Positions 6,213 through 39,167 are shown, counted from the first letter of the stretch. The stretch: DNA of 42,420 nucleotides from Candidatus Omnitrophota bacterium (GCA_028702395.1 JAQVOV010000002.1:27213-69632), one strand, 5' to 3'. Program-made: numbers and translations. Notes: generated by a model not told the origin, from the sequence alone.

Positions 6213-6327
6213 ATAGTGACTATTAACTAGAAATTAGTGACTGGAAAAGTCTACATAACGTTATCTTTAAATCAATTTATTCTAATCACTAGTCACTTGT
6301 CACTAATCACTAACCCCTATTAATCCC
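6213..6327. repeat. composite intergenic hairpin element (TAGTGAC-word arms, TATCTTTAAATCAATT core)
   Basis: Arms at 6214-6244 (TAGTGAC TATTAAC TAGAAAT TAGTGAC TGG) and 6282-6313 (CTAATCACTAGTCACTTGTCACTAATCACTAA). Core TTATCTTTAAATCAATTTATT at 6261-6281. Terminal CCCCTATTAATCCC at 6314-6327. Confidence 0.75.
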
Positions 6328-6331
6328 TACT

Positions 6332-6361
6332 AAAAAACATGAGTAGCGGATACACCGCTAC
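6332..6361 (-). terminator. rho-independent terminator candidate after the small basic-protein gene
   Basis: Minus strand reads GTAGCGG-TGTAT-CCGCTAC followed by TCATGTTTTTT. Confidence 0.55.
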
Positions 6362-6461
6362 CCATTAAAAATATAATTGCTGATCCAAATACTTCTAGTT
6401 TTTTGCAGAACACTTTTTTATGTTTGGAAAAACTAAGAATTTTTCCCGAACACTGGCATTT

Positions 6462-6629
6462 TTATTTCAACTCTGCTGCTTTAGCTTTAGAAACAACTCT
6501 CCAGCATTCATGTGTACCTGTTGGAGACTTTGCAACTGCAAAAAAACGACCTTTTTTATCCTCAATCCTGTATTCTGATGTTTTGAATTTTGCCTTTGAT
6601 TTTACATCATAAAATTCCATTGCTTCCAT
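6462..6629 (-). CDS. small basic protein, 55 aa (MEAMEFYDVKSKAKFKTSEYRIEDKKGRFFAVAKSPTGTHECWRVVSKAKAAELK)
   Basis: Hand-translated and below the ORF-track length cutoff. GGAGG lies 7 nt upstream of the ATG, a terminator follows, and a promoter-like TTGCCA-18-TACACT lies about 140 nt upstream. The K-G-R...P-x-G-T pattern recalls DUF5679-type small proteins, but the four Cys positions are replaced. That family match is from memory and tentative. Confidence 0.45.
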   Translation of the reverse strand: MEAMEFYDVKSKAKFKTSEYRIEDKKGRFFAVAKSPTGTHECWRVVSKAKAAELK

Positions 6630-7016
6630 TCGATAACCTCCTTTTTTCGTATTACATGCTTCGTATCTTGAGCTATGAGTTTTTTAAGATCATAGGATCT
6701 CTCAGAGCACGCAGTTGGTAACACGCAACTGATCCTTTAATATTAATATTTTATGTAGTGTATCATAGAATTTCTTTTTTGGCAAGAAAAGCTTATTTTT
6801 TATTTGAAAATGATAAATATTGGTTTTAAGACCCCTTTTTTCCTTTAGTGTTAATTAGTACCAATTGTATAAACCTATATAAATGTATTTCAAAAATCTA
6901 TTAAGTGTTATTTGTCTGCAGATCTATCCTAAGAATGTTGGTAAACCAATAATATTCAGCTTTCCACAAAAGACTCATTACTCACAGACACATAACACAC
7001 AACAAAGATCCTTTTA

Positions 7017-7078
7017 CCCCAATCTTATCTGTGTTCATCTAAAAAACCATTTTAACCCAATTCTTATCTGTGTTCATC
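7017..7078. repeat. two direct copies of about 23 nt (CCAAT(T)CTTATCTGTGTTCATC)
   Basis: Copies at 7017-7039 and 7055-7078, immediately downstream of the ftsA stop. Confidence 0.6.
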
Positions 7079-7105
7079 CTTATACTTCAAATCAAGTCCA
7101 ATACC

Positions 7106-8143: not shown

Positions 8144-8366
8144 TTTATCTCCTTTATAGCATCTGCAAGGTAAAAGTAAAAAGGTAAAAGTAAAAAACCT
8201 GTTTTCATTGTGGAGTCTTTTGTTTTTTTTGTAGGGGCGTATTGCAATACGCCCCTACAACGCTCTATTTGAACGTTCCATTAGCTACACGTAATGCGTA
8301 GTTCAATCCAGGACGTTCCACCCTTTTTACTTTTGCCTTTTTCCTTTTTACTTATCTTCCTATTAA
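8144..8366 (-). repeat. composite intercistronic hairpin element (GGTAAAA/GTAAAAA-word arms)
   Basis: Arms at 8167-8197 and 8324-8360. CATTGTGGAG box at 8198-8219. GC hairpin GTAGGGGCGTATTGCAATACGCCCCTAC at 8231-8258. Boxes GAACGTTCCAT (8271-8281) and AGGACGTTCCAC (8310-8321) flank an inner block at 8282-8305. Confidence 0.8.
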
Positions 8367-9173: not shown

Positions 9174-9309
9174 TGTTACTCCTTTATAGCGATTTTAGCT
9201 GTCAGCTATCAGCGTTCAGCTATCAGCAAAGGATCTTTCTAGAATCATTTTTTAGATCCCCTCTTTTAGGACGTTCCACAAGCTGACAGCTGAAAGCTAA
9301 TGGCTGATG
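9174..9309 (-). repeat. intercistronic hairpin element (AGCTNTC-word arms)
   Basis: Arm TAGCTGTCAGCTATCAGCGTTCAGCTATCAGC (9196-9227) faces arm AAGCTGACAGCTGAAAGCTAATGGCTGATG (9280-9309). Box AGGACGTTCCAC at 9268-9279. Confidence 0.8.
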
Positions 9310-13610: not shown

Positions 13611-13763
13611 GATTCTCCTAAAAAATATACTTTGTTATTAGTTATTTGTTATTAGTGTGAGTGGTGGATCGTCCTAAATACAGTTTTCAAACAAACCCTA
13701 TGAAGAGCCTTCTTTCACACACACTAATAACACACACTAATAACTAACTCCAATTAACTCGCT
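13611..13763 (+). repeat. intercistronic hairpin element (TTGTTAT/TAGTGTG-word arms), opposite orientation to the others
   Basis: Arms at 13631-13663 and 13726-13750. Here the box GTGGATCGTCCTAAATA (13664-13680) reads on the plus strand. Confidence 0.75.
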
Positions 13764-14843: not shown

Positions 14844-15085
14844 ATTATTTCCTTTATATGACTTTTAAGTAAAAAGTAAAAAGTTAAAAGTTAAAAGTTA
14901 AAAATCTGTTATCATTGTAGAATCTTATGTTAGGCTCATTTTTAGTGTCTGTGTCTGTTTCTGTGTCTGGAAAGGAACATCCTAAATATAGTTTTTTTAC
15001 ATCTTTTAGAAGGATCCACCACTGACACAAACACAAACACTGACACTAATTACTTTTACCTTTTTCCTTTTTCCTTAATCTTCTA
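14844..15085 (-). repeat. nested composite element: GTGTCT-word element inside a GTAAAAA-word element
   Basis: Outer arms at 14865-14904 and 15050-15076. CATTGTAGAATCTT box at 14905-14926. Inner arms at 14942-14970 and 15020-15049 enclose GGAACATCCTAAATATAG...AGAAGGATCCAC. Confidence 0.8.
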
Positions 15086-16444: not shown

Positions 16445-16648
16445 CTCTAATGGGATTCAAGGTAAAAGTAAAAAATCTGTTACCATTGTGGAATCTTCTT
16501 GGATTTCTTTGTAGGGGCGTATTGCAATACGCCCCTACAAAAACCTCTTTCAGAACTTTCCACATTTTTTGTTCTTAACTAAATTTAGGACGCTCCATCC
16601 TTTTACCTTTTACCTTTTTACTTTTTCCTTATAAGTCTTATTACTCGC
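16445..16648 (-). repeat. composite intercistronic hairpin element (GGTAAAA-word arms)
   Basis: Arms at 16459-16475 and 16599-16628. Box TCTGTTACCATTGTGGAATCTT at 16476-16497. A GC hairpin at 16511-16538 is identical to 8231-8258. Further boxes at 16551-16565 and 16587-16598. Confidence 0.8.
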
Positions 16649-19223: not shown

Positions 19224-19436
19224 TGGACTCCTTTATTTAGTGACTAGTAACTAGAAACTAGTTACTAGAAATAATTGCTTTAAAGCTATTTCGTTTATGA
19301 AGTTTCTTACATAATCTCTCTAAAATTGTTGCTAATTAATCAATTAAATTTTTATTCTCTATCTTAGGATATCTTAAGATCAATTTATCCTAGTCACTAG
19401 TCACGAATCCCTATCACCTGATACCTAGTCACGAAC
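19224..19436. repeat. composite intercistronic hairpin element (TAGTNAC-word arms, ATCTTAAGATCAATTTATC core)
   Basis: Arms at 19237-19268 and 19390-19436. Core motif at 19369-19389. The right arm overlaps the last codons of murE. Confidence 0.75.
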
Positions 19437-20843: not shown

Positions 20844-20949
20844 TTAACTCCTTTATAGCATGTTCGAAATTCGGTAATCGAAAATCGGAAATCGAATTGT
20901 TTTTTGTTTTCCGACTACCGTCTCCCGACTCCCGATTTACGAATGCTTA
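20844..20949 (-). repeat. minimal hairpin element: two 35-nt heptamer-word arms and a 12-nt loop
   Basis: Left arm TTCGAAA TTCGGTA ATCGAAA ATCGGAA ATCGAA (20863-20896). Loop TTGTTTTTTGTT. Right arm TTCCGAC TACCGTC TCCCGAC TCCCGAT TTACGAA (20909-20943). Confidence 0.85.
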
Positions 20950-23000: not shown

Positions 23001-23132
23001 ATTATATTTTCCTTTCTCTTTATATATCCAAACTCGTAACCTTTATATTTGTTCTTTATTAACTTTCCCCTATCATCTGTAAGCTATCACCAAAAGAAGT
23101 ACCTAAACAACCATTACTAATCGAATTTTTTT

Positions 23133-23198
23133 AGGACCATCCACAAGCTGAGCCCTGCCTGCCGGCAGGCAGGGCTAATAGCTGAAAGCTGATGGCTA
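23133..23198 (-). repeat. hairpin-element arm (AGCTGAA words) carrying an inserted GC-rich palindrome
   Basis: Box AGGACCATCCAC at 23133-23144. The arm AAGCTGAG...CTAATAGCTGAAAGCTGATGGCTA is interrupted by CCCTGCCTGCCGGCAGGCAGGG (23153-23174). The partner arm near 23070-23095 is degenerate. Confidence 0.6.
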
Positions 23199-27403: not shown

Positions 27404-27431
27404 ATAGCTGCCTCCAACATTTGCTGTTTTA

Positions 27432-27503
27432 GTAGGGACAATTCATGCCCTATACCAGAGTTTTGCTATGCAAAACACGGTATAGGGTTTAAATTGCCCC
27501 TAC
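27432..27503 (-). repeat. 72-nt compound hairpin, copy 1 (inverted relative to copy 2)
   Basis: This copy matches the reverse complement of 29503-29574 at 71 of 72 positions. A GTAGGG(A/G)C...GCCCCTAC outer stem encloses a second palindrome. Confidence 0.9.
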
Positions 27504-27540
27504 TACTTTATAATATTGCAATTAAAATGAAAATTGTTAT

Positions 27541-27978: not shown

Positions 27979-27996
27979 TTTTTCTCCTTATACTAT

Positions 27997-28094
27997 AAAC
28001 CGTTATGCGTTGTGCGTTATTGCGTTATGCGTAAATCGTAAACCGTGAACCGTATATCTTTAAATCAATTAATACTATTCACTATTCACTAAAG
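27997..28094. repeat. hybrid element: CGTNNNN-word arm Y, TATCTTTAAATCAATT core, ATTCACT-word arm
   Basis: Arm Y at 27997-28054, core at 28055-28070, arm AATACTATTCACTATTCACTAAAG at 28071-28094. The complement of arm Y lies 1.55 kb away at 29605-29690. Confidence 0.8.
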
Positions 28095-28099
28095 CCCTA

Positions 28100-29314
28100 T
28101 TAACCTAAAACCTCTGATAATAGGTCCAGATAATCTGATATCAGTCTGGTAGTAAGAAAATGTTTTCTGACATGTTCTTTTGCTTTTACACCCATTGATT
28201 CACTTAATTTAGGATCTTTAAAAAGCTTTACTACTTTATCTGCACATGCTTTAAGATCATAAGGATCAACTAAAAATCCTGTTTGTCCATCAATGATCTG
28301 ATGAGGAATACCTCCTACATTACCTGCAACTACCGGTTTACCTTTCCATAAAGCTTCTGCTACGACCAACCCAAATCCCTCTTTAATTGATTTTTGGATA
28401 ATGACAGTAGAAAATCGTTGAATAGCATTCACAAGAAGCTCATTATTACCTACAACGAATAGAACATCTCCTTTATCAATATAACTTTTTGCTTTCGCAT
28501 AAACTCTTTCAAATATTTTCATACCTTCAGGGTCATCTGTTGCAAGGTTATAGCAATAAAGAAGCCTGCAATCCACTTTTTCTTTTACAAGTTTAAAAAC
28601 CTCAAGTACTCCTTCAGGGTCTTTCCAAGGATCCATTCTTGACACTTGTGTTAATAAAGGTTTATCTGTTGGGATATTATTATCTTTTATATACTTCATA
28701 ATCTCTTCTTCAGAGAGCTCTCTGTTCTTTAAAGACAAAGGATCTATTGCAGGTTGAATTACCTTTTGAATGACCGGAAGATCAGGTTTTCTGTATTTTT
28801 CGCTTGATATGATAATAGCATCATAACGGATCATGAATTTTTTTAAATACTCCCATAATTCTTTATTAGGATCAGTAATATCTATATGGCATCTCCATAT
28901 CCATGGTTGTTGTTTTCTGTAATAAGATATTAAAGGAAGCGGCTGTGGATCATGAACTATCAAACAATCATATTTATTAAGCTGCGAAAAACTTGCATAT
29001 TCCTGATTTATATCAGTATAAATAGATTTTACTTGTGGGGAAAGATCAATAGGCCCGCTTTGAAGTGCATTGTGAAAACTTTTTGTTACATCAAAAAAAG
29101 CAGGGCTTCCGTGAATTGTACGCCATTCTGCGTCTAAACCAACCTCGTTCATAAGAGGAACCATTCTTCCCAGTATTTCAGCAACACCTCCGCCTAAAAA
29201 TGTTGCGTTTACATTCGCTATCTTCTTACGATATAATTTATTGGCTTTCTTGAATATCTTTGATATCGTTTCAACACCTACAATATCAATATAATCTGAT
29301 ATACTTCTCATCAT
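28100..29314 (-). CDS. treT: trehalose glycosyltransferring synthase TreT-like GT4 glycosyltransferase
   Basis: 404 aa, collinear with archaeal TreT as recalled (GGGVAEIL, FF.VTK.FHNALQ, VHDPQP, PW.WRCHID, VSR.DPWK, EGFGL.V.EA.WKGKPV). Confidence 0.8.
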   Translation of the reverse strand: MMRSISDYIDIVGVETISKIFKKANKLYRKKIANVNATFLGGGVAEILGRMVPLMNEVGLDAEWRTIHGSPAFFDVTKSFHNALQSGPIDLSPQVKSIYTDINQEYASFSQLNKYDCLIVHDPQPLPLISYYRKQQPWIWRCHIDITDPNKELWEYLKKFMIRYDAIIISSEKYRKPDLPVIQKVIQPAIDPLSLKNRELSEEEIMKYIKDNNIPTDKPLLTQVSRMDPWKDPEGVLEVFKLVKEKVDCRLLYCYNLATDDPEGMKIFERVYAKAKSYIDKGDVLFVVGNNELLVNAIQRFSTVIIQKSIKEGFGLVVAEALWKGKPVVAGNVGGIPHQIIDGQTGFLVDPYDLKACADKVVKLFKDPKLSESMGVKAKEHVRKHFLTTRLISDYLDLLSEVLG

Positions 29315-29502
29315 GTTTTACTCCTTTTTTTTAGGAAAAATTATTCTGAAAAGAACCATATATAAAAGTTAATATATTATAACACAATATCATCTCTTGT
29401 GTTCATTTTTTTAAAACGGCTTGATAATGGCAGATTGGTTTAACTAGTTGGACTAATCTGGTCTTAAAGATGAAAGTGTTGGAAATTCTCAACGATGTTT
29501 TT

Positions 29503-29574
29503 GTAGGGGCAATTTAAACCCTATACCGTGTTTTGCATAGCAAAACTCTGGTATAGGGCATGAATTGCCCCTAC
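29503..29574 (+). repeat. 72-nt compound hairpin, copy 2
   Basis: GTAGGGGCAATT + 44-nt palindrome (TAAACCCTATACCGTGTTTTGCATAGCAAAACTCTGGTATAGGG) + CATGAATTGCCCCTAC. Confidence 0.9.
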
Positions 29575-29604
29575 TGAAAAACATGCAATAGCACAATAAC
29601 AAAT

Positions 29605-29690
29605 TACGGTTCACGGTTCACGATTTACGACATACGCATAACGCACAACGCTTTACGACTTACGGCTTGCGACTCACGACTAACGGTTTA
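29605..29690. repeat. heptamer-word arm Y' (about 12 units, TACGGTT CACGGTT CACGATT TACGACA ...)
   Basis: The first 25 nt match the reverse complement of 28030-28054 with 1 mismatch. A further shared 14-mer, ATAACGCACAACGC, follows a one-unit indel. Confidence 0.85.
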
Positions 29691-35231: not shown

Positions 35232-35399
35232 TTAAAGCTTTTTTTCAATAGGGTTGCCGCATTGATCACAATTTACTTTTAAAAATTGACAAAAGAACTG
35301 GCTCATTAGTATTTTGCTCCCGCAATGAGGACATTCATACCATTCAGGCGTTAACAGAAGATCCTGTTCAAGAAACTCTAGTTCATCTCGTTCATCCAT
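35232..35399 (-). CDS. small zinc-ribbon protein, 55 aa (MDERDELEFLEQDLLLTPEWYECPHCGSKILMSQFFCQFLKVNCDQCGNPIEKKL)
   Basis: Hand-translated. GGAGG lies 7 nt upstream of the ATG, and the protein has CPHC...CDQC cysteine pairs. Confidence 0.4.
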   Translation of the reverse strand: MDERDELEFLEQDLLLTPEWYECPHCGSKILMSQFFCQFLKVNCDQCGNPIEKKL

Positions 35400-35457
35400 A
35401 ATATTCCTCCTTTTTTGTGTTATTGTGTAATGGGTAGTAACACTATTACTCAGTACT

Positions 35458-35723
35458 CATGACTCATGACTCATGACTCATGACCCATTACCCATGACCC
35501 ATTACCCATTACCCATGACTCATGACCCATTACCCATGACCCATTACCCATGACCCATTACCCATGACTCATGACCCATTACCCATGACTCATGACCCAT
35601 TACCCATGACTCATGACCCATTACCCATGACCCATGACCCATGACTCATGACCCATTACCCATGACTCATGACCCATGACCCATTACCCATTACCCATGA
35701 CTCATGACCCATGACCCATTCCC
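35458..35723. repeat. 38-unit perfect-register heptamer tandem array (CATGACT / CATGACC / CATTACC)
   Basis: The 266 nt parse without indels into 38 units of three variants. The last unit, CATTCCC, is degenerate. Confidence 0.95.
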
Positions 35724-35787
35724 CCTCTATTATTATATACGATCAAAAAGCCATTCTGTCCCAAATTATTTTAAAAAAGAAGTGAAA

Positions 35788-35891
35788 TGCGGAGAAAAAG
35801 CCGCCTAATCTCCGCACATTACATAAAATACCTTGTATTTACTTGACAATGCGGAGAAAAGCAGGTATAATCTCCGCATAAAGTGCGGAGA
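35788..35891 (+). promoter_or_regulatory. Fic promoter with two 8-13-8 palindromic operators and a half-site
   Basis: TGCGGAGA-N13-TCTCCGCA occurs at 35788-35816 and 35850-35878. The promoter is TTGACA (35843-35848), 17 nt, TATAAT (35866-35871). A half-site TGCGGAGA at 35884-35891 lies over the SD. Confidence 0.75.
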
Positions 35892-35899
35892 TTAATAAT

Positions 35900-37003
35900 A
35901 TGAAATATATTTATCAAAATGAACAATGGCCATCTTTTTCATGGGACATAAAAAATGTTCTTGAAGCTTTAGTCTCATTAAAATCTGTTCAAGGTACCTT
36001 GTTGGGGAAAATGAATTCTTTAGGATTTGATCTTCAACAAGAAGCTATCGCAAGTACTTTAACTGACGAAGTAATAAGGTCTTCTGCTATTGAAGGGCAC
36101 ATTTTAAATACAGAACAAGTGCGTTCTTCAGTTGTAAGACGTTTAGGATTACCTGTTGAAAAAGAATATCAAACTGACAGGTATATTGAAGGCATTGTTA
36201 CCATTGTTTTTAATGCTGTTGAACACTATGATAAGCCTCTAACAAAAGAACGGCTATTGGGCTGGCAGGCCTCTCTTTTTCCTACTGGATACAGTACCAT
36301 TAATAAAATATTAACAGGGCAGTTTCGTGATGATAAAAAAGGGCCTATGCAAGTTGTTTCAGGACCAATGGGAAAAGAAAAAGTACATTTTCAAGCACCT
36401 GAGGCAAATCAATTAGAAAAAGAAATAGAAAAATTCTTAAATTGGTTAAATCAAACAGATAAAACCGATGGTATTATAAAAGCTGGTATAGCCCATTTAT
36501 GGTTTATTACACTTCATCCTTTTGAAGATGGTAATGGCCGTATAGCAAGAACTCTAACTGATATGATGTTAGCAAAGGCTGAAAAGTCTTCTCAACGTTT
36601 TTATAGCATATCAAAACAAATGCAGGAAAACCGAGATGATTACTATAATATATTGGAAAAAACTCAAAAAGGGTCTTTGGATATTACCTTTTGGCTACTT
36701 TGGTTTATAAAATGTGTTACAGATGCTATTGCTTCTTCGGAAACAACCTTGAACTCTATTTTAAATAAAGCTTTATTCTGGCAAAAGCACTCATCAATAA
36801 CATTTAATGATCGTCAAATAAAGATCTTGAATAAATTACTTGATGATTTTATTGGAAACCTAACATCTTCCAAATGGGCTGCAATTTGCAAGTGTTCACA
36901 GGATACTGCAAACAGAGACATTAACGATCTCTTGGCTAAAAATGTTTTGGTCAAGCATGGTCAAGGCCGAAGCATAAAGTACACCCTTAGCAGTCAAAAT
37001 TAA
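35900..37003 (+). CDS. Fic family protein (AMPylase-type) with autoinhibitory motif and C-terminal wHTH-like region
   Basis: Fic motif HPFEDGNGRIAR, N-terminal inhibitory motif SSAIEG of type (S/T)xxxE(G/N), and a C-terminal helix-rich tail (SQDTANRDINDLLAKNVLV). Confidence 0.9.
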   Translation: MKYIYQNEQWPSFSWDIKNVLEALVSLKSVQGTLLGKMNSLGFDLQQEAIASTLTDEVIRSSAIEGHILNTEQVRSSVVRRLGLPVEKEYQTDRYIEGIVTIVFNAVEHYDKPLTKERLLGWQASLFPTGYSTINKILTGQFRDDKKGPMQVVSGPMGKEKVHFQAPEANQLEKEIEKFLNWLNQTDKTDGIIKAGIAHLWFITLHPFEDGNGRIARTLTDMMLAKAEKSSQRFYSISKQMQENRDDYYNILEKTQKGSLDITFWLLWFIKCVTDAIASSETTLNSILNKALFWQKHSSITFNDRQIKILNKLLDDFIGNLTSSKWAAICKCSQDTANRDINDLLAKNVLVKHGQGRSIKYTLSSQN

Positions 37004-37129: not shown

Positions 37130-37218
37130 AGTAGGGGCAATTCATGAATTGCCCCTACAAAACCTCATCCAGGACGTTCCACTGGCTGACAGCTGAAGGC
37201 TAACAGCTAAAGGCTAAC
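37130..37218 (-). repeat. one-armed element: simple GC hairpin, AGGACGTTCCAC box, GCTGAAGG-word arm
   Basis: GTAGGGGCAATTCATGAATTGCCCCTAC at 37130-37157, box at 37170-37181, and arm TGGCTGACAGCTGAAGGCTAACAGCTAAAGGCTAACC at 37182-37218. No clear partner arm. Confidence 0.75.
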
Positions 37219-38463: not shown

Positions 38464-38787
38464 TTATTTTTTCTTTGGTGATAGATCTATACTAAGTTTA
38501 GCATCTAAAGCTAAAGCGATCTTACTTAATGTAGATACAGAAATCTCAGTATTACTAGCATCCTCTAGTCTAGAAATAGTCTGTTGAGTTGTATTGACCT
38601 TCTTGGCTAATTGAGCTTGAGTCAAATTTCTACGTTTTCGAAGTTTCACGATTTTCATGGCAAGTTCTAAGCGTTCGATTTGCTCTATATATGCTTTCCG
38701 AAACTCTTTACTTTTCTTAAACTCACTATCTATATGAGAGCTTATAGTTTCTGGTATATTCACCTTTATTTTTTTTGGCTTTTTCAT
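38464..38787 (-). CDS. XRE-family HTH antitoxin (HigA-like)
   Basis: 107 aa with the HTH LTQAQLAKKVNTTQQTISRLE, directly downstream of the toxin gene. Confidence 0.8.
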   Translation of the reverse strand: MKKPKKIKVNIPETISSHIDSEFKKSKEFRKAYIEQIERLELAMKIVKLRKRRNLTQAQLAKKVNTTQQTISRLEDASNTEISVSTLSKIALALDAKLSIDLSPKKK

Positions 38788-38798
38788 TTCTTTCCCCT

Positions 38799-39167
38799 TT
38801 ATTTTAATTTTATTTTTCCTTCATTATATTGAATTTGAAAATCTATCATTCTCTTTTTTGCTTTCAATTTATCATTTTCAGATATCTTTGATGTTTTCTT
38901 TAAAATACCATGTAATAACACAATATAATCTTTAAACATATATCCATAAAAAACTCGAACATTGTTAGATGAAAACTGAACTCTGAGCTCATATAGATCA
39001 TCTCCTAAATACTCAACTATTGGTCGTTTCAATTCCTTCCAATTGTCACATAAAAAATTAGTACTTGCTAATACTTTAGCCCTTGTATGCACATCTAGTT
39101 TATTTATAAATTCTTTAACAGGCTTTTTCCCACGTTTATCCTGATAATAAATTGCTGTCTTTGCCAC
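38799..39167 (-). CDS. RelE/ParE-superfamily toxin, Gp49/HigB-like
   Basis: 122 aa with a GTG start 4 nt after GGAGG. The pattern KPVKEFINKL...LYELRV...RVFY is typical of Gp49-like toxins. Toxin-first order is as in HigBA. Confidence 0.75.
   Translation of the reverse strand: MAKTAIYYQDKRGKKPVKEFINKLDVHTRAKVLASTNFLCDNWKELKRPIVEYLGDDLYELRVQFSSNNVRVFYGYMFKDYIVLLHGILKKTSKISENDKLKAKKRMIDFQIQYNEGKIKLK

What the first reader, a model, noticed from the sequence alone, without database searches (positions are those of the whole stretch)
35458..35723. A 38-unit, indel-free heptamer array with three alternating unit variants
The 266 nt parse exactly into 38 heptamers with no register shift: CATGACT (9 units), CATGACC (17), CATTACC (11) and a terminal CATTCCC.
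- The order is patterned, with frequent ACT-ACC-TACC triplets, rather than random or homogeneous.
- The array lies between the divergently oriented zinc-ribbon ORF (start 35399) and the Fic promoter (35843).
- It is built like the word arms of the hairpin elements but is about 8 times longer.
- It has no partner arm in the window. Only a 10-nt complement, GTAATGGGTA, lies at 35428-35437.

The array is not CRISPR (no spacers) and not coding (stops in all frames). Three possibilities:
- a source or expanded orphan arm of the element family;
- a slippage-prone contingency tract, spacing two promoters, that changes length in 7-nt steps;
- a binding array for a sequence-specific protein.
Basis: seen in the sequence. 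Interest (0 to 1): 0.65.

Follow-up and report, generated by a model that had tools for sequence, protein, structure and literature searches.

The report
Expanded heptamer repeat in gene leader
This is a real 38-copy, 7-base tandem repeat of a kind long known from cyanobacteria, sitting here in the upstream leader of a tiny zinc-ribbon gene of an uncultured landfill Omnitrophota bacterium; a related lineage lacks it at the same site, so it looks like a dispensable local expansion and not a new kind of element.

Summary
The array is real. Positions 35458-35723 parse into 38 heptamers with no indel. The true unit counts are CATGACT 10, CATGACC 15, CATTACC 12 and CATTCCC 1, not 9/17/11/1. The order is non-random: there are 6 ABC triplets (P = 0.00035).

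It is an STRR-type heptanucleotide simple-sequence repeat. Arrays of the same words (CATTACC, CATTACT, CATGACC) occur in at least 120 stretches from other species' genomes, mostly filamentous cyanobacteria, and reach 64 units. The host is a deep-branching Omnitrophota lineage, and period 7 stands out among tandem-repeat periods in the window.

The main new result is comparative. A related lineage (JGI contig L127 and a groundwater unitig in run X25) has the same zinc-ribbon gene, ribosome-binding site, promoter-like block and Fic-side operator. It carries 24 nt where the window has 310 nt (35417-35726).

The array therefore lies between a conserved promoter-like block and the ribosome-binding site. 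It does not lie between the two divergent promoters, and it is dispensable.

Its sense strand is (GGGN4)n. That strand holds the only canonical G-quadruplex motifs in the 42 kb window and folds twice as stably as the antisense strand.

I found no evidence of hypervariability, but short-read unitigs cannot measure copy number. Verdict: a new member of a known kind, of moderate interest.

The parts
35458..35723 (-). 38-unit heptamer array. On the minus strand, which is the sense strand of the zinc-ribbon gene, the units read GGTCATG, AGTCATG and GGTAATG. That gives (GGGN4)n with 28 GGG tracts.
   Evidence: Exact unitigs from independent metagenome runs tile it.
35417..35726 (-). 310-nt segment comprising the array, the loop hairpin and the short partner arm. 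In the related short-leader allele it is replaced by 24 nt (GGGTATAAAAAGTACGGGTAAATA).
   Evidence: Alignment with L127. A unitig in run X25 joins 35416 to 35727 with 24 letters in between.
35424..35436 (-). Short partner arm of about 2 units (TACCCATTACACA on the minus strand). It is complementary to GGGTAATGGGTA words anywhere in the array.
   Evidence: 12-15 nt, 85-92% complementary to many positions in the array. It pairs with the array in the centroid structure.
35436..35457 (-). Degenerate tail of the array (AGTACTG AGTAATA) that forms a small stem-loop between the array and the partner arm.
   Evidence: The tail keeps the heptamer phase.
35397..35416 (-). Conserved ribosome-binding site and start block AAAAAAGGAGGAATATTATG of the zinc-ribbon gene. 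It is left unpaired in the predicted leader fold.
   Evidence: Identical in L127. Unpaired in the minimum-free-energy structure.
35232..35399 (-). 55-aa zinc-ribbon ORF (CPHC...CDQC), acidic (pI 4.4). It is a real gene under purifying selection.
   Evidence: Zn_ribbon_3 hit, below the curated cutoff. One homolog, P0121, in 5.8 billion proteins. 18 differences lie in synonymous codons and 2 in non-synonymous codons. Charge and pI.
35727..35775 (-). Promoter-like block (GGGACA-N17-TATATAAT) on the far side of the array. It is conserved with the short-leader relative.
   Evidence: 45 of 48 identical to L127 positions 1-48. 73 nt with 3 mismatches in the X25 unitig. Coordinates. Promoter function is inferred, not shown.
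35789..35891 (+). Fic promoter (TTGACA-17-TATAAT, 35843-35871), overlapped and preceded by GCGGAGA-N13-TCTCCGC inverted repeats (35789-35815, 35851-35877, half-site 35885-35891). This is neighbouring context and is not part of the array.
35900..37003 (+). DUF4172-Fic-winged-helix gene, divergent from the zinc-ribbon gene.

Best explanation
**What it is.** The array is an STRR-type heptanucleotide simple-sequence repeat. It grew in place inside the 5' leader of a small zinc-ribbon gene in a deep-branching Omnitrophota lineage whose intergenic DNA is unusually rich in heptamer tandem repeats.

**How it probably grew (inferred).** It grew by replication slippage or unequal exchange in blocks of one to three units (7, 14 or 21 nt). 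That gives the ABC/BC higher-order pattern and leaves no private mutations outside two variable positions. The CATG core makes each unit quasi-palindromic, which would stabilise slipped, folded-back intermediates. That may explain why this arm ran away to 38 units while its partner arm stayed at about 2.

**Where it lies (shown by comparison).** It sits between a conserved promoter-like block and the ribosome-binding site. A related lineage has 24 nt there. The array is therefore dispensable for the gene.

**What it probably does (inferred).** If the conserved block is the promoter, the array is transcribed as a roughly 340-nt G-rich leader. That leader self-pairs or forms G-quadruplexes while leaving the Shine-Dalgarno sequence free. 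It would then act, if at all, as a passive damper or modulator of mRNA yield or stability, not as a fast on/off switch.
For: **Structure of the array.**
- 38 indel-free units with a patterned order.
- Only positions 4 and 7 of the unit vary among 37 units.
- Identity is slightly higher at lag 21 than at lags 7 and 14.

**Heptamer repeats in this genome.**
- Period 7 stands out among periods 4-12 in two window-wide scans. It is the only period with arrays at a strict cutoff and gives 9 arrays against 0-3 for each of periods 5-10 at a looser cutoff.
- Heptamer arms fill most of the gaps between genes in the division and cell-wall (dcw) cluster.

**Same words elsewhere.**
- The same word family forms arrays in at least 120 stretches from other species' genomes, mostly filamentous cyanobacteria.
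- Among those arrays the median length is 7 units, the 90th percentile is 16 and the longest is 64. Mixtures of unit variants are common.

**Comparison with the short allele.**
- L127 and the X25 unitig share the promoter-like block, the ribosome-binding site, the gene and the Fic-side operator, but have 24 nt in place of 310 nt.
- The gene is under purifying selection: 18 differences in synonymous codons against 2 in non-synonymous codons.

**Strand asymmetry.**
- Sense-strand RNA folds at -108 kcal/mol (z = -12.4). Antisense RNA folds at -57 kcal/mol (z = -8.6).
- All four canonical G4 motifs in the window lie in the array, on the sense strand.
- The Shine-Dalgarno sequence is unpaired in the leader fold.

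**Stability.** Identical internal words recur in three metagenomes from 2019-2022.

**Literature context.** PMC4679880, PMC4692102 and PMC12721329.
Against: - No transcript data exist, so the promoter assignment and transcription of the array are inferred from conservation alone. The -10/-35 match is imperfect, and the consensus scan did not flag it.
- The direction of the event (expansion here versus deletion in the relative) is not polarised by an outgroup.
- The short allele offers only weak seed similarity (AGTAC, GGGTAA).
- Copy-number stability cannot be judged from k=31 unitigs.
- Arrays of this word family in other genomes sit mostly just after stop codons and least often between divergent genes. 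This position is therefore atypical and could reflect a specific role.
Confidence: 0.6

Rival explanations
1. Phase-variable 'rheostat' contingency tract. It would work like the H. influenzae hmw (ATCTTTC)n repeat in the 5'-UTR: the unit number changes often by slippage, and a longer leader lowers expression of the zinc-ribbon gene.
For: - The unit size (7 nt) and the position between a promoter-like block and the start codon are the same as in hmw (PMC12721329).
- The leader RNA can form long hairpins and has a short partner arm.
- Presence or absence differs between related lineages.
Against: - The tract is heavily interrupted. The longest pure heptamer run is 3 units, and the longest exact internal repeat is 62 nt.
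- The same unit-order words recur in samples from different years and studies.
- The gene is a cytoplasmic-looking acidic ORFan, not a surface or restriction-modification gene.
- No length variants were seen, but k=31 unitigs could not have revealed them.
Confidence: 0.15
2. A selected structural or binding element. The (GGGN4)n strand would form G-quadruplexes (with an i-motif on the other strand), or the roughly 21-bp ABC super-unit (two helical turns) would array a sequence-specific protein. Either way it would regulate or insulate the divergent zinc-ribbon and Fic pair.
For: - The only four G3N1-7 x4 motifs in 42 kb lie here, all on one strand, with 28 GGG tracts.
- G3N4 heptamer repeats of Xanthomonas and Nostoc form G4 in vitro (PMC4692102).
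- The non-random ABC order could reflect constraint.
Against: - The short allele works without the array.
- The G4Hunter mean is only 0.93 (maximum 1.4), and A units interrupt the G tracts.
- Rehm et al. found a preference for 4 units and under-representation between divergent genes. Neither fits this array.
- No candidate binder is evident. The neighbouring zinc-ribbon protein is acidic, and the Fic winged helix has its own GCGGAGA operators.
Confidence: 0.1
3. A pre-formed mobile hairpin element (or one arm of one) that inserted into the leader, not a repeat grown in place. Its true partner arm would lie elsewhere in the genome, as for the arms that bracket gene 28100-29314.
For: - The whole 310-nt unit (array, loop and short arm) is present or absent as a block.
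- TAATAG occurs at both edges.
- Elsewhere in the window, complementary heptamer arms can lie 1.5 kb apart around a gene.
- The contig (69.6 kb) extends beyond the window.
Against: - The family core motif and Shine-Dalgarno block are absent.
- There is no second array of these words in 42 kb.
- No transposase or target-site duplication beyond a 5-6 nt AT-rich word was found.
- The degenerate in-phase units at the array's 3' end look like local decay.
Confidence: 0.1
4. Assembly artefact: a mis-joined or mis-counted repeat.
For: - Short-read k=31 contigs break inside the array.
- No long reads are available.
- The same words occur at 10-40 times higher depth from other community members.
Against: - Exact unitigs at flank-like depth tile the array in two libraries and partly in a third.
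- The longest internal exact repeat is 62 nt, well below read length.
- Both junctions are reproduced exactly.
Confidence: 0.03

Closest known systems
STRR (short tandemly repeated repetitive) heptanucleotide sequences of filamentous cyanobacteria, and heptamer 'long simple sequence repeats' in general (Mazel 1990 and Mrazek 2007 as cited in PMC4679880)
   Same: - 7-nt unit, head-to-tail, non-coding.
- Many different heptamer words dispersed through one genome.
- The very words found here (CATTACC, CATTACT, CATGACC) form arrays in Nostoc, Calothrix, Dolichospermum, Symploca, Mastigocoleus and other genera. Those arrays reach 64 units and often mix variants one base apart.
   Different: - The host is an Omnitrophota lineage, not a cyanobacterium.
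- CATGAC units dominate here but are rare elsewhere (39 of 755 units).
- The array lies between divergent genes, the rarest context for this word family.
TAACTGA direct repeats of marine Beggiatoaceae, some Cyanobacteria and Bacteroidetes (MacGregor 2015, PMC4679880)
   Same: - Heptamer arrays in intergenic DNA just upstream of start codons.
- Patchy cross-phylum distribution.
- Long arrays of up to 43 copies in a few genomes.
- Close relatives lack the array at the same intergenic site.
   Different: - The word is different.
- Most Beggiatoaceae sets have only 2-6 copies and lie within a few nucleotides of the start codon.
- This array is 38 units long and ends 58 nt before the ATG.
H. influenzae hmw1A/hmw2A (ATCTTTC)n 5'-UTR repeat (PMC12721329)
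   Same: - A heptamer repeat between the promoter and the start codon.
- It is transcribed and folds with a partner arm into a long hairpin.
- Its length tunes expression.
- The layout here, with a promoter-like block, array, short partner arm and ribosome-binding site, is analogous.
   Different: - hmw units are identical and hypermutable. The units here are three interleaved variants.
- The partner arm here is only about 13 nt.
- Transcription, RNase III processing and length variation are all untested here.
G-quadruplex-forming GGGNATC / GGGGA(C/T)T heptamer repeats of Xanthomonas and Nostoc (Rehm 2015, PMC4692102)
   Same: - G3N4 heptamer units.
- Non-coding and strand-asymmetric.
- Extensive length variation between close relatives.
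   Different: - Those repeats prefer about 4 units and avoid divergent intergenic regions.
- This array has 38 units in a divergent region.
- About a quarter of its units (AGTCATG) lack a G tract.
Heptamer-arm hairpin elements of this same genome (window 8144-8366, 9174-9309, 14844-15085, 20844-20949 and others)
   Same: - Built from tandem heptamers.
- Sits immediately upstream of a minus-strand gene.
- Has a complementary 3' arm before the ribosome-binding site.
- A TAATAG-like word lies 5' of the first arm.
   Different: - Arms there are 2-5 units and roughly balanced. Here they are 38 versus about 2 units.
- The core TGGAACGTCCTRAA and the GCTATAAAGGAG block are absent here.

Membership tests
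Heptanucleotide tandem repeats (STRR-type / long SSR) | Unit of 7 nt repeated head-to-tail without spacers | tested here: met
   38 units, 0% indels, TRF score 370.
Heptanucleotide tandem repeats (STRR-type / long SSR) | Non-coding (intergenic) location | tested here: met
   Stops in all six frames. The array lies between ORFs 35232-35399 and 35900-37003.
Heptanucleotide tandem repeats (STRR-type / long SSR) | Many arrays of different heptamer words dispersed in the same genome | tested here: met
   Period 7 is the only period from 4 to 12 with arrays at a strict cutoff. It gives 9 arrays against 0-3 for each of periods 5-10 at a looser cutoff. About 20 short heptamer arrays are listed.
Heptanucleotide tandem repeats (STRR-type / long SSR) | The same words form arrays in recognised repeat-rich taxa (filamentous cyanobacteria, some Bacteroidota) | tested here: met
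   At least 120 stretches match (CATKACY)x4. Most are cyanobacterial and reach 64 units.
Heptanucleotide tandem repeats (STRR-type / long SSR) | Host is a heterocystous or filamentous cyanobacterium (the original, narrow STRR definition) | tested here: not met
   Every named top hit for ArgRS is Candidatus Omnitrophota, and so are most named top hits for D-LDH. The array is therefore 'STRR-like', not STRR in the strict sense.
Phase-variable contingency SSR (hmw type) | Long tract of identical units | tested here: not met
   The longest pure run is 3 units (AAA). Three variants are interleaved.
Phase-variable contingency SSR (hmw type) | Tract lies in the promoter or 5'-UTR of the regulated gene | tested here: met
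   The array lies between a block conserved with the short allele (35727-35775) and the ribosome-binding site. That the block is the promoter is inferred.
Phase-variable contingency SSR (hmw type) | Unit number varies within and between populations | tested here: inconclusive
   Only k=31 unitigs are available, and their words are identical in 3 samples. No long-read run was found. The only variation seen between lineages is presence or absence.
Phase-variable contingency SSR (hmw type) | Controls a surface, host-interaction or restriction-modification gene | tested here: not met
   The downstream gene is a 55-aa acidic zinc-ribbon ORFan with one homolog in 5.8 billion proteins.
G-quadruplex-forming heptamer repeats (Rehm 2015) | At least four G3 tracts separated by short loops on one strand | tested here: met
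   Four G3N1-7 x4 motifs and 28 GGG tracts, all on the minus strand. There are none elsewhere in the window.
G-quadruplex-forming heptamer repeats (Rehm 2015) | G4 actually forms (CD spectroscopy, K+ dependence) | not testable with these tools
   Only pattern and G4Hunter scores could be computed (mean 0.93, maximum 1.4).
G-quadruplex-forming heptamer repeats (Rehm 2015) | Typical context: about 4 units, between co-directional ORFs | tested here: not met
   This array has 38 units and lies between divergent ORFs.
Heptamer-arm hairpin elements of this genome | Two complementary heptamer arms of comparable length | tested here: not met
   38 units against a 13-15 nt partner. Other elements have 2-5 units per arm.
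Heptamer-arm hairpin elements of this genome | Core motif TGGAACGTCCTRAA next to an arm | tested here: not met
   17 matches in the window (5.7 expected by chance), none within 35400-35830.
CRISPR array | Repeats separated by unique spacers of similar length | tested here: not met
   The units abut with no spacers.

The most novel reading that the evidence does not exclude
In this lineage, heptamer arrays would not be passive slippage debris. They would be the arms of transcribed hairpins that lengthen in 7-nt steps by a transcription- or RNA-structure-coupled process, as recently shown for the hmw repeat and RNase III in H. influenzae. The 38-unit tract would be a runaway arm caught next to its empty-site allele. 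It would give a natural before-and-after pair for working out how STRR-type repeats arise and spread across phyla.
Probability: 0.1. Interest if true: 0.7.

Novelty: new member of a known kind. Interest (0 to 1): 0.38.

Why it matters
Heptanucleotide tandem repeats have been known in cyanobacteria for over 30 years, and more recently in Beggiatoaceae, Bacteroidota and Xanthomonas. No function or generating mechanism has been agreed for them.

This locus adds three things.
- It extends the same repeat words to an uncultured Omnitrophota lineage whose nearest sequenced relatives lack heptamer arrays. That fits lineage-specific bursts or horizontal spread.
- It provides a clean filled-versus-empty pair at one site. 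The pair shows that the array is dispensable and sits in a gene leader.
- It shows that the array is the only G-quadruplex-capable sequence in 42 kb of a genome with 33.5% G+C.

It does not reveal a new class of element. Its value is as a well-delimited test case.

Tried and rejected
- **CRISPR and coding readings.** Rejected: there are no spacers, and there are stops in all frames.
- **Rfam.** A scan of the whole window at gathering thresholds gave no hit.
- **Left junction in JGI metagenomes.** An exact 23-mer search gave 0 hits.
- **Promoter-block 19-mer in JGI metagenomes.** It gave 67 stretches, but only L189 (the same contig as L127) has extended similarity. The other 66 match over only the 19-21 nt around the query word and show no similarity to the gene or the rest of the block.
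- **Long reads.** I searched for Nanopore runs to size the array and none could be listed. No RNA run was found, so transcription is untested.
- **Source genome.** I looked for it among GTDB representative genomes through the array pattern.
- **Distant relatives.** Those at 60-71% protein identity (L124, L125, L195, L196) are not syntenic around the array. They have at most one heptamer array in about 20 kb each, so they do not help polarise the event.
- **Do the window's hairpins act as RNA on the sense strand?** I compared sense and antisense folding energies of 21 intergenic regions. The sense strand was more stable in 16 of 21, but base-composition skew could explain that, so the result is inconclusive.
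- **Elhai et al. 2008.** This paper on small dispersed repeats inside cyanobacterial heptamer repeats could not be read. I use it only as a recalled lead.
- **Zinc-ribbon protein binding its own leader.** I judged this unlikely from its acidity.

Full report
**1. The observation**

Positions 35458-35723 are 266 nt and parse into exactly 38 heptamers with no register shift. Tandem Repeats Finder gives period 7, 37.4 copies, 0% indels and score 370.

There are 10 CATGACT (A), 15 CATGACC (B), 12 CATTACC (C) and one terminal CATTCCC. The order is AAABCBCCABCBCBCABCABCABCBBABCABBCCABBx.

- Only positions 4 (G/T) and 7 (C/T) of the unit vary. No unit carries a private mutation apart from the terminal one.
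- The order is non-random. There are six ABC triplets (P = 0.00035 in 100,000 shuffles). After the opening AAA run, A is always followed by B (8 of 8) and never by C.
- All six frames contain stops.
- The longest internal exact repeat is 62 nt, so ordinary 150-nt reads can bridge it.
- Exact k=31 unitigs from two libraries of one landfill study tile almost the whole array at flank-like depth. A 2019 run from another study matches parts of it.

The array is real. Its exact copy number is plausible but has not been verified by long reads, and none could be found.

**2. Host and genomic setting**

The window has 33.5% G+C, and nearly all its genes are on the minus strand. Positions 7-24 kb hold the cell-division and cell-wall (dcw) cluster.

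- Every named top hit for ArgRS is Candidatus Omnitrophota, and so are most named top hits for D-lactate dehydrogenase. Identities are only 58-71%. This is a deep-branching Omnitrophota lineage, found in landfill, groundwater and manure metagenomes.
- Period 7 stands out among periods 4-12 in two window-wide scans. At a strict cutoff it is the only period with arrays. At a looser cutoff it gives 9 arrays against 0-3 for each of periods 5-10.
- Short heptamer runs (2-5 units) occur as complementary arm pairs that fill most gaps between genes in the dcw cluster. The word differs from element to element. Many of these elements carry the motif TGGAACGTCCTRAA (17 matches against 5.7 expected) and end at a GCTATAAAGGAG Shine-Dalgarno block.
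- The nearest sequenced Omnitrophota (ArgRS 60% identical) show no period-7 arrays in about 20 kb of partly syntenic DNA. The heptamer proliferation is therefore lineage-specific.

**3. Same words elsewhere**

I scanned one genome per species (185,579 species) for (CATKACY)x4.

- Most hits are filamentous cyanobacteria: Symploca, Nostoc, Calothrix, Dolichospermum, Planktothrix, Microcoleus, Mastigocoleus and others. The rest include Bacteroidota, Caldilineaceae, Psychromonas and others.
- Extended arrays have a median of 7 units and a 90th percentile of 16. The longest has 64 units, in Mastigocoleus testarum. Many mix variants one or two bases apart.
- CATTAC[CT] is the common form (716 units). 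CATGAC[CT] is rare (39 units), so the composition here is unusual.
- This is the phylogenetic pattern described for TAACTGA and other heptamer repeats, where arrays of up to 43 copies are reported (PMC4679880).
- In those genomes the arrays are mostly intergenic. With the G-rich strand as sense, they typically sit 10-24 nt after an upstream stop codon. A divergent intergenic position is the rarest class, at 10 of 86 (rough ORF-based census).

**4. The key comparison: a filled and an empty site**

The 55-aa zinc-ribbon ORF has a single homolog among 5.8 billion proteins, P0121. It lies on a 1.69-kb JGI contig, L127.

- L127 comes from a related genome. It has 32% G+C and carries a heptamer array and a GTGGAACGTCCT core of its own.
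- The two genes differ at 20 nucleotides. Eighteen are in synonymous codons, so the ORF is a real gene under purifying selection.
- Upstream, L127 reads TTTAAAATAATTTGGGACAGAATGACTTTTTGTTCGTATATAATAGTAG, then 24-25 nt, then AAAAAAGGAGGAATATTATG.
- In the window the first block (45 of 48 identical) lies at 35727-35775, on the far side of the array. The last block lies at 35397-35416.
- A 158-nt unitig from a groundwater metagenome (run X25) independently shows the same short form. On the window it joins 35416 to 35727, skipping 310 nt, with 24 letters in between. It then continues for 73 nt (3 mismatches) and its overhanging end carries the TCTCCGC/GTGCG operator words found next to the Fic promoter.

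The locus is therefore orthologous on the Fic side. The relative carries 24 nt where the window carries the 266-nt array, a 22-nt stem-loop tail and a 13-nt partner arm.

Three consequences follow.
- (a) The array is dispensable for the gene.
- (b) The conserved block is the best candidate for the zinc-ribbon promoter (GGGACA-N17-TATATAAT). The match is imperfect and the consensus scan did not flag it.
- (c) Both divergent promoters lie on the same side of the array. The array cannot be a spacer between them.

**5. Anatomy and predicted behaviour of the leader**

On the minus strand, which is the sense strand of the zinc-ribbon gene, the units read GGTCATG, AGTCATG and GGTAATG. This gives (GGGN4)n, interrupted by the ten AGTCATG units.

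- There are 28 GGG tracts. All four canonical G3N1-7 x4 motifs in the whole 42-kb window, counting both strands, lie inside the array. The G4Hunter score is moderate (mean 0.93, maximum 1.4).
- The CATG core is a palindrome, so the array can pair with itself.
- As RNA, the sense strand folds at -108 kcal/mol (z = -12.4). The antisense strand folds at -57 kcal/mol (z = -8.6). The difference comes from G-U pairs. As single-stranded DNA the C-rich strand folds weakly, at -25.6 kcal/mol.
- Many registers compete, so the centroid structures are almost empty.
- In the 361-nt leader fold, the stem that persists in the centroid pairs a GUAAUGGGU word near the 5' end of the array with ACCCAUUAC at 35424-35436. 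The Shine-Dalgarno region stays unpaired.
- No terminator-like site is present.
- The layout resembles the window's heptamer-arm hairpins, but it is extremely lopsided (38 versus about 2 units). It lacks their core motif and Shine-Dalgarno block.

**6. Most likely explanation**

*Shown:*
- It is an STRR-type heptamer repeat with higher-order block structure.
- It lies between a conserved upstream block and the ribosome-binding site.
- It is absent from the orthologous site of a related lineage.
- It is strand-asymmetric and G4-capable.
- Its internal words are the same in three samples from 2019-2022.

*Inferred:*
- It expanded in place by slippage or unequal exchange in 7-, 14- and 21-nt steps. 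The pattern and the absence of private mutations point to recent block duplication or homogenisation.
- The quasi-palindromic unit favours folded slipped intermediates.
- It is transcribed as a roughly 340-nt structured leader.
- Any effect on expression is a passive damping of mRNA yield or stability.

I give this explanation about 0.6.

**7. Rivals**

- **hmw-like phase-variable rheostat (0.15).** It has the same unit size and the same position (PMC12721329). The interrupted tract, the recurrence of identical words across samples and the gene class argue against it. Copy-number variation was not measurable.
- **Selected G4 or protein-binding element (0.1).** It cannot be excluded. The short allele shows the array is not required. 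The adjacent zinc-ribbon protein is acidic (pI 4.4), and the Fic winged helix has its own GCGGAGA-N13-TCTCCGC operators.
- **Insertion of a pre-formed mobile hairpin arm with a distant partner (0.1).** This is suggested by the block-wise presence or absence and by arms that bracket a whole gene elsewhere in the window. No second array, core motif or transposition signature is present.
- **Assembly artefact (0.03).**

**8. Verdict**

- 'Expanded arm' captures the anatomy.
- 'Spacing two promoters' is contradicted by the comparison with the short allele.
- 'Binding array' is untested.

This is a new member of a known kind, heptanucleotide STRR-like repeats, in a phylum where I am not aware of a previous report (from my own knowledge; the papers I read name Cyanobacteria, Beggiatoaceae, Thiocystis, Bacteroidetes, Xanthomonas and a few others). 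Its most useful feature is the filled and empty allele pair. Interest is moderate-low, at 0.38.

Noticed in passing
window 8144-8366, 9174-9309, 13611-13763, 14844-15085, 16445-16648, 19224-19424, 20844-20949, 23001-23195, 37168-37218: Most gaps between genes in the dcw cluster are filled by hairpin elements. Their arms are 2-5 tandem heptamers, with a different word in each element and complementary arms. Many sit next to the motif TGGAACGTCCTRAA (17 matches against 5.7 expected) and end at GCTATAAAGGAG just before the start codon. Some are nested; 14844-15085 has inner arms of period 6. The sense strand folds slightly better in 16 of 21 gaps, which is inconclusive.
   Followed up: partly
window 27996-28054 and 29605-29662: Complementary heptamer-word arms (33 nt, 91% complementary) lie 1.55 kb apart and bracket the entire TreT-like glycosyltransferase gene 28100-29314. 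It looks as if the gene sits in the loop of one of these hairpins or is flanked by an invertible or mobile pair.
   Followed up: partly
window 35789-35891: The Fic gene has a perfect TTGACA-17-TATAAT promoter (35843-35871). Two GCGGAGA-N13-TCTCCGC inverted repeats and a third half-site overlap and precede it, so this is a likely operator. The Fic protein carries a C-terminal DIP2311-like winged helix that could bind it.
   Followed up: partly
window 8229-8260, 16508-16541, 27430-27505, 29498-29579, 37131-37158: GTAGGGGC...GCCCCTAC palindromes, which look like REP elements, recur inside or beside the hairpin elements. Two copies are identical (GTAGGGGCGTATTGCAATACGCCCCTAC).
   Followed up: no
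window 6213-7105: No ftsZ follows ftsA at the end of the dcw cluster. Instead there is an 893-nt stretch with only a roughly 55-aa ORF (MEAMEFYDVKSKAKF...) and another heptamer run.
   Followed up: no
runs X5, X8, X18, X20 laid on window 35443-35739: Sequencing runs of four coded organisms (labelled by organism, not as metagenomes) hold very large depths of CATGACC-like heptamer words. They hold nothing else from this region. Neighbouring words in those runs are other heptamers (TTTGACC, CCCTGAC, CATGACT). The organisms are coded, so I could not identify them.
   Followed up: partly
runs X1, X2, X4, X22, X25 laid on window 35470-35550: Within the landfill and groundwater metagenomes, the array's words occur at 10-40 times the depth of its flanks. 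They continue into unrelated flanks, some of them G+C-rich. Other community members therefore carry the same heptamer words.
   Followed up: partly
L127 500-640: The relative's contig carries four tandem copies of a roughly 27-nt unit (GGTTAATAGGGCTTGGTGATAAGGAC) downstream of the zinc-ribbon gene. The unit contains the TTAATAGG word that precedes many heptamer arms in the window.
   Followed up: no
window 38464-39167: A toxin-antitoxin-like pair lies near the Fic gene: a 122-aa ORF followed by a 107-aa ORF whose sequence looks like an XRE-type helix-turn-helix protein. This suggests that the 35-40 kb region is an accessory or defence-type islet. The reading rests on ORF sequence only; I ran no family search.
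   Followed up: no
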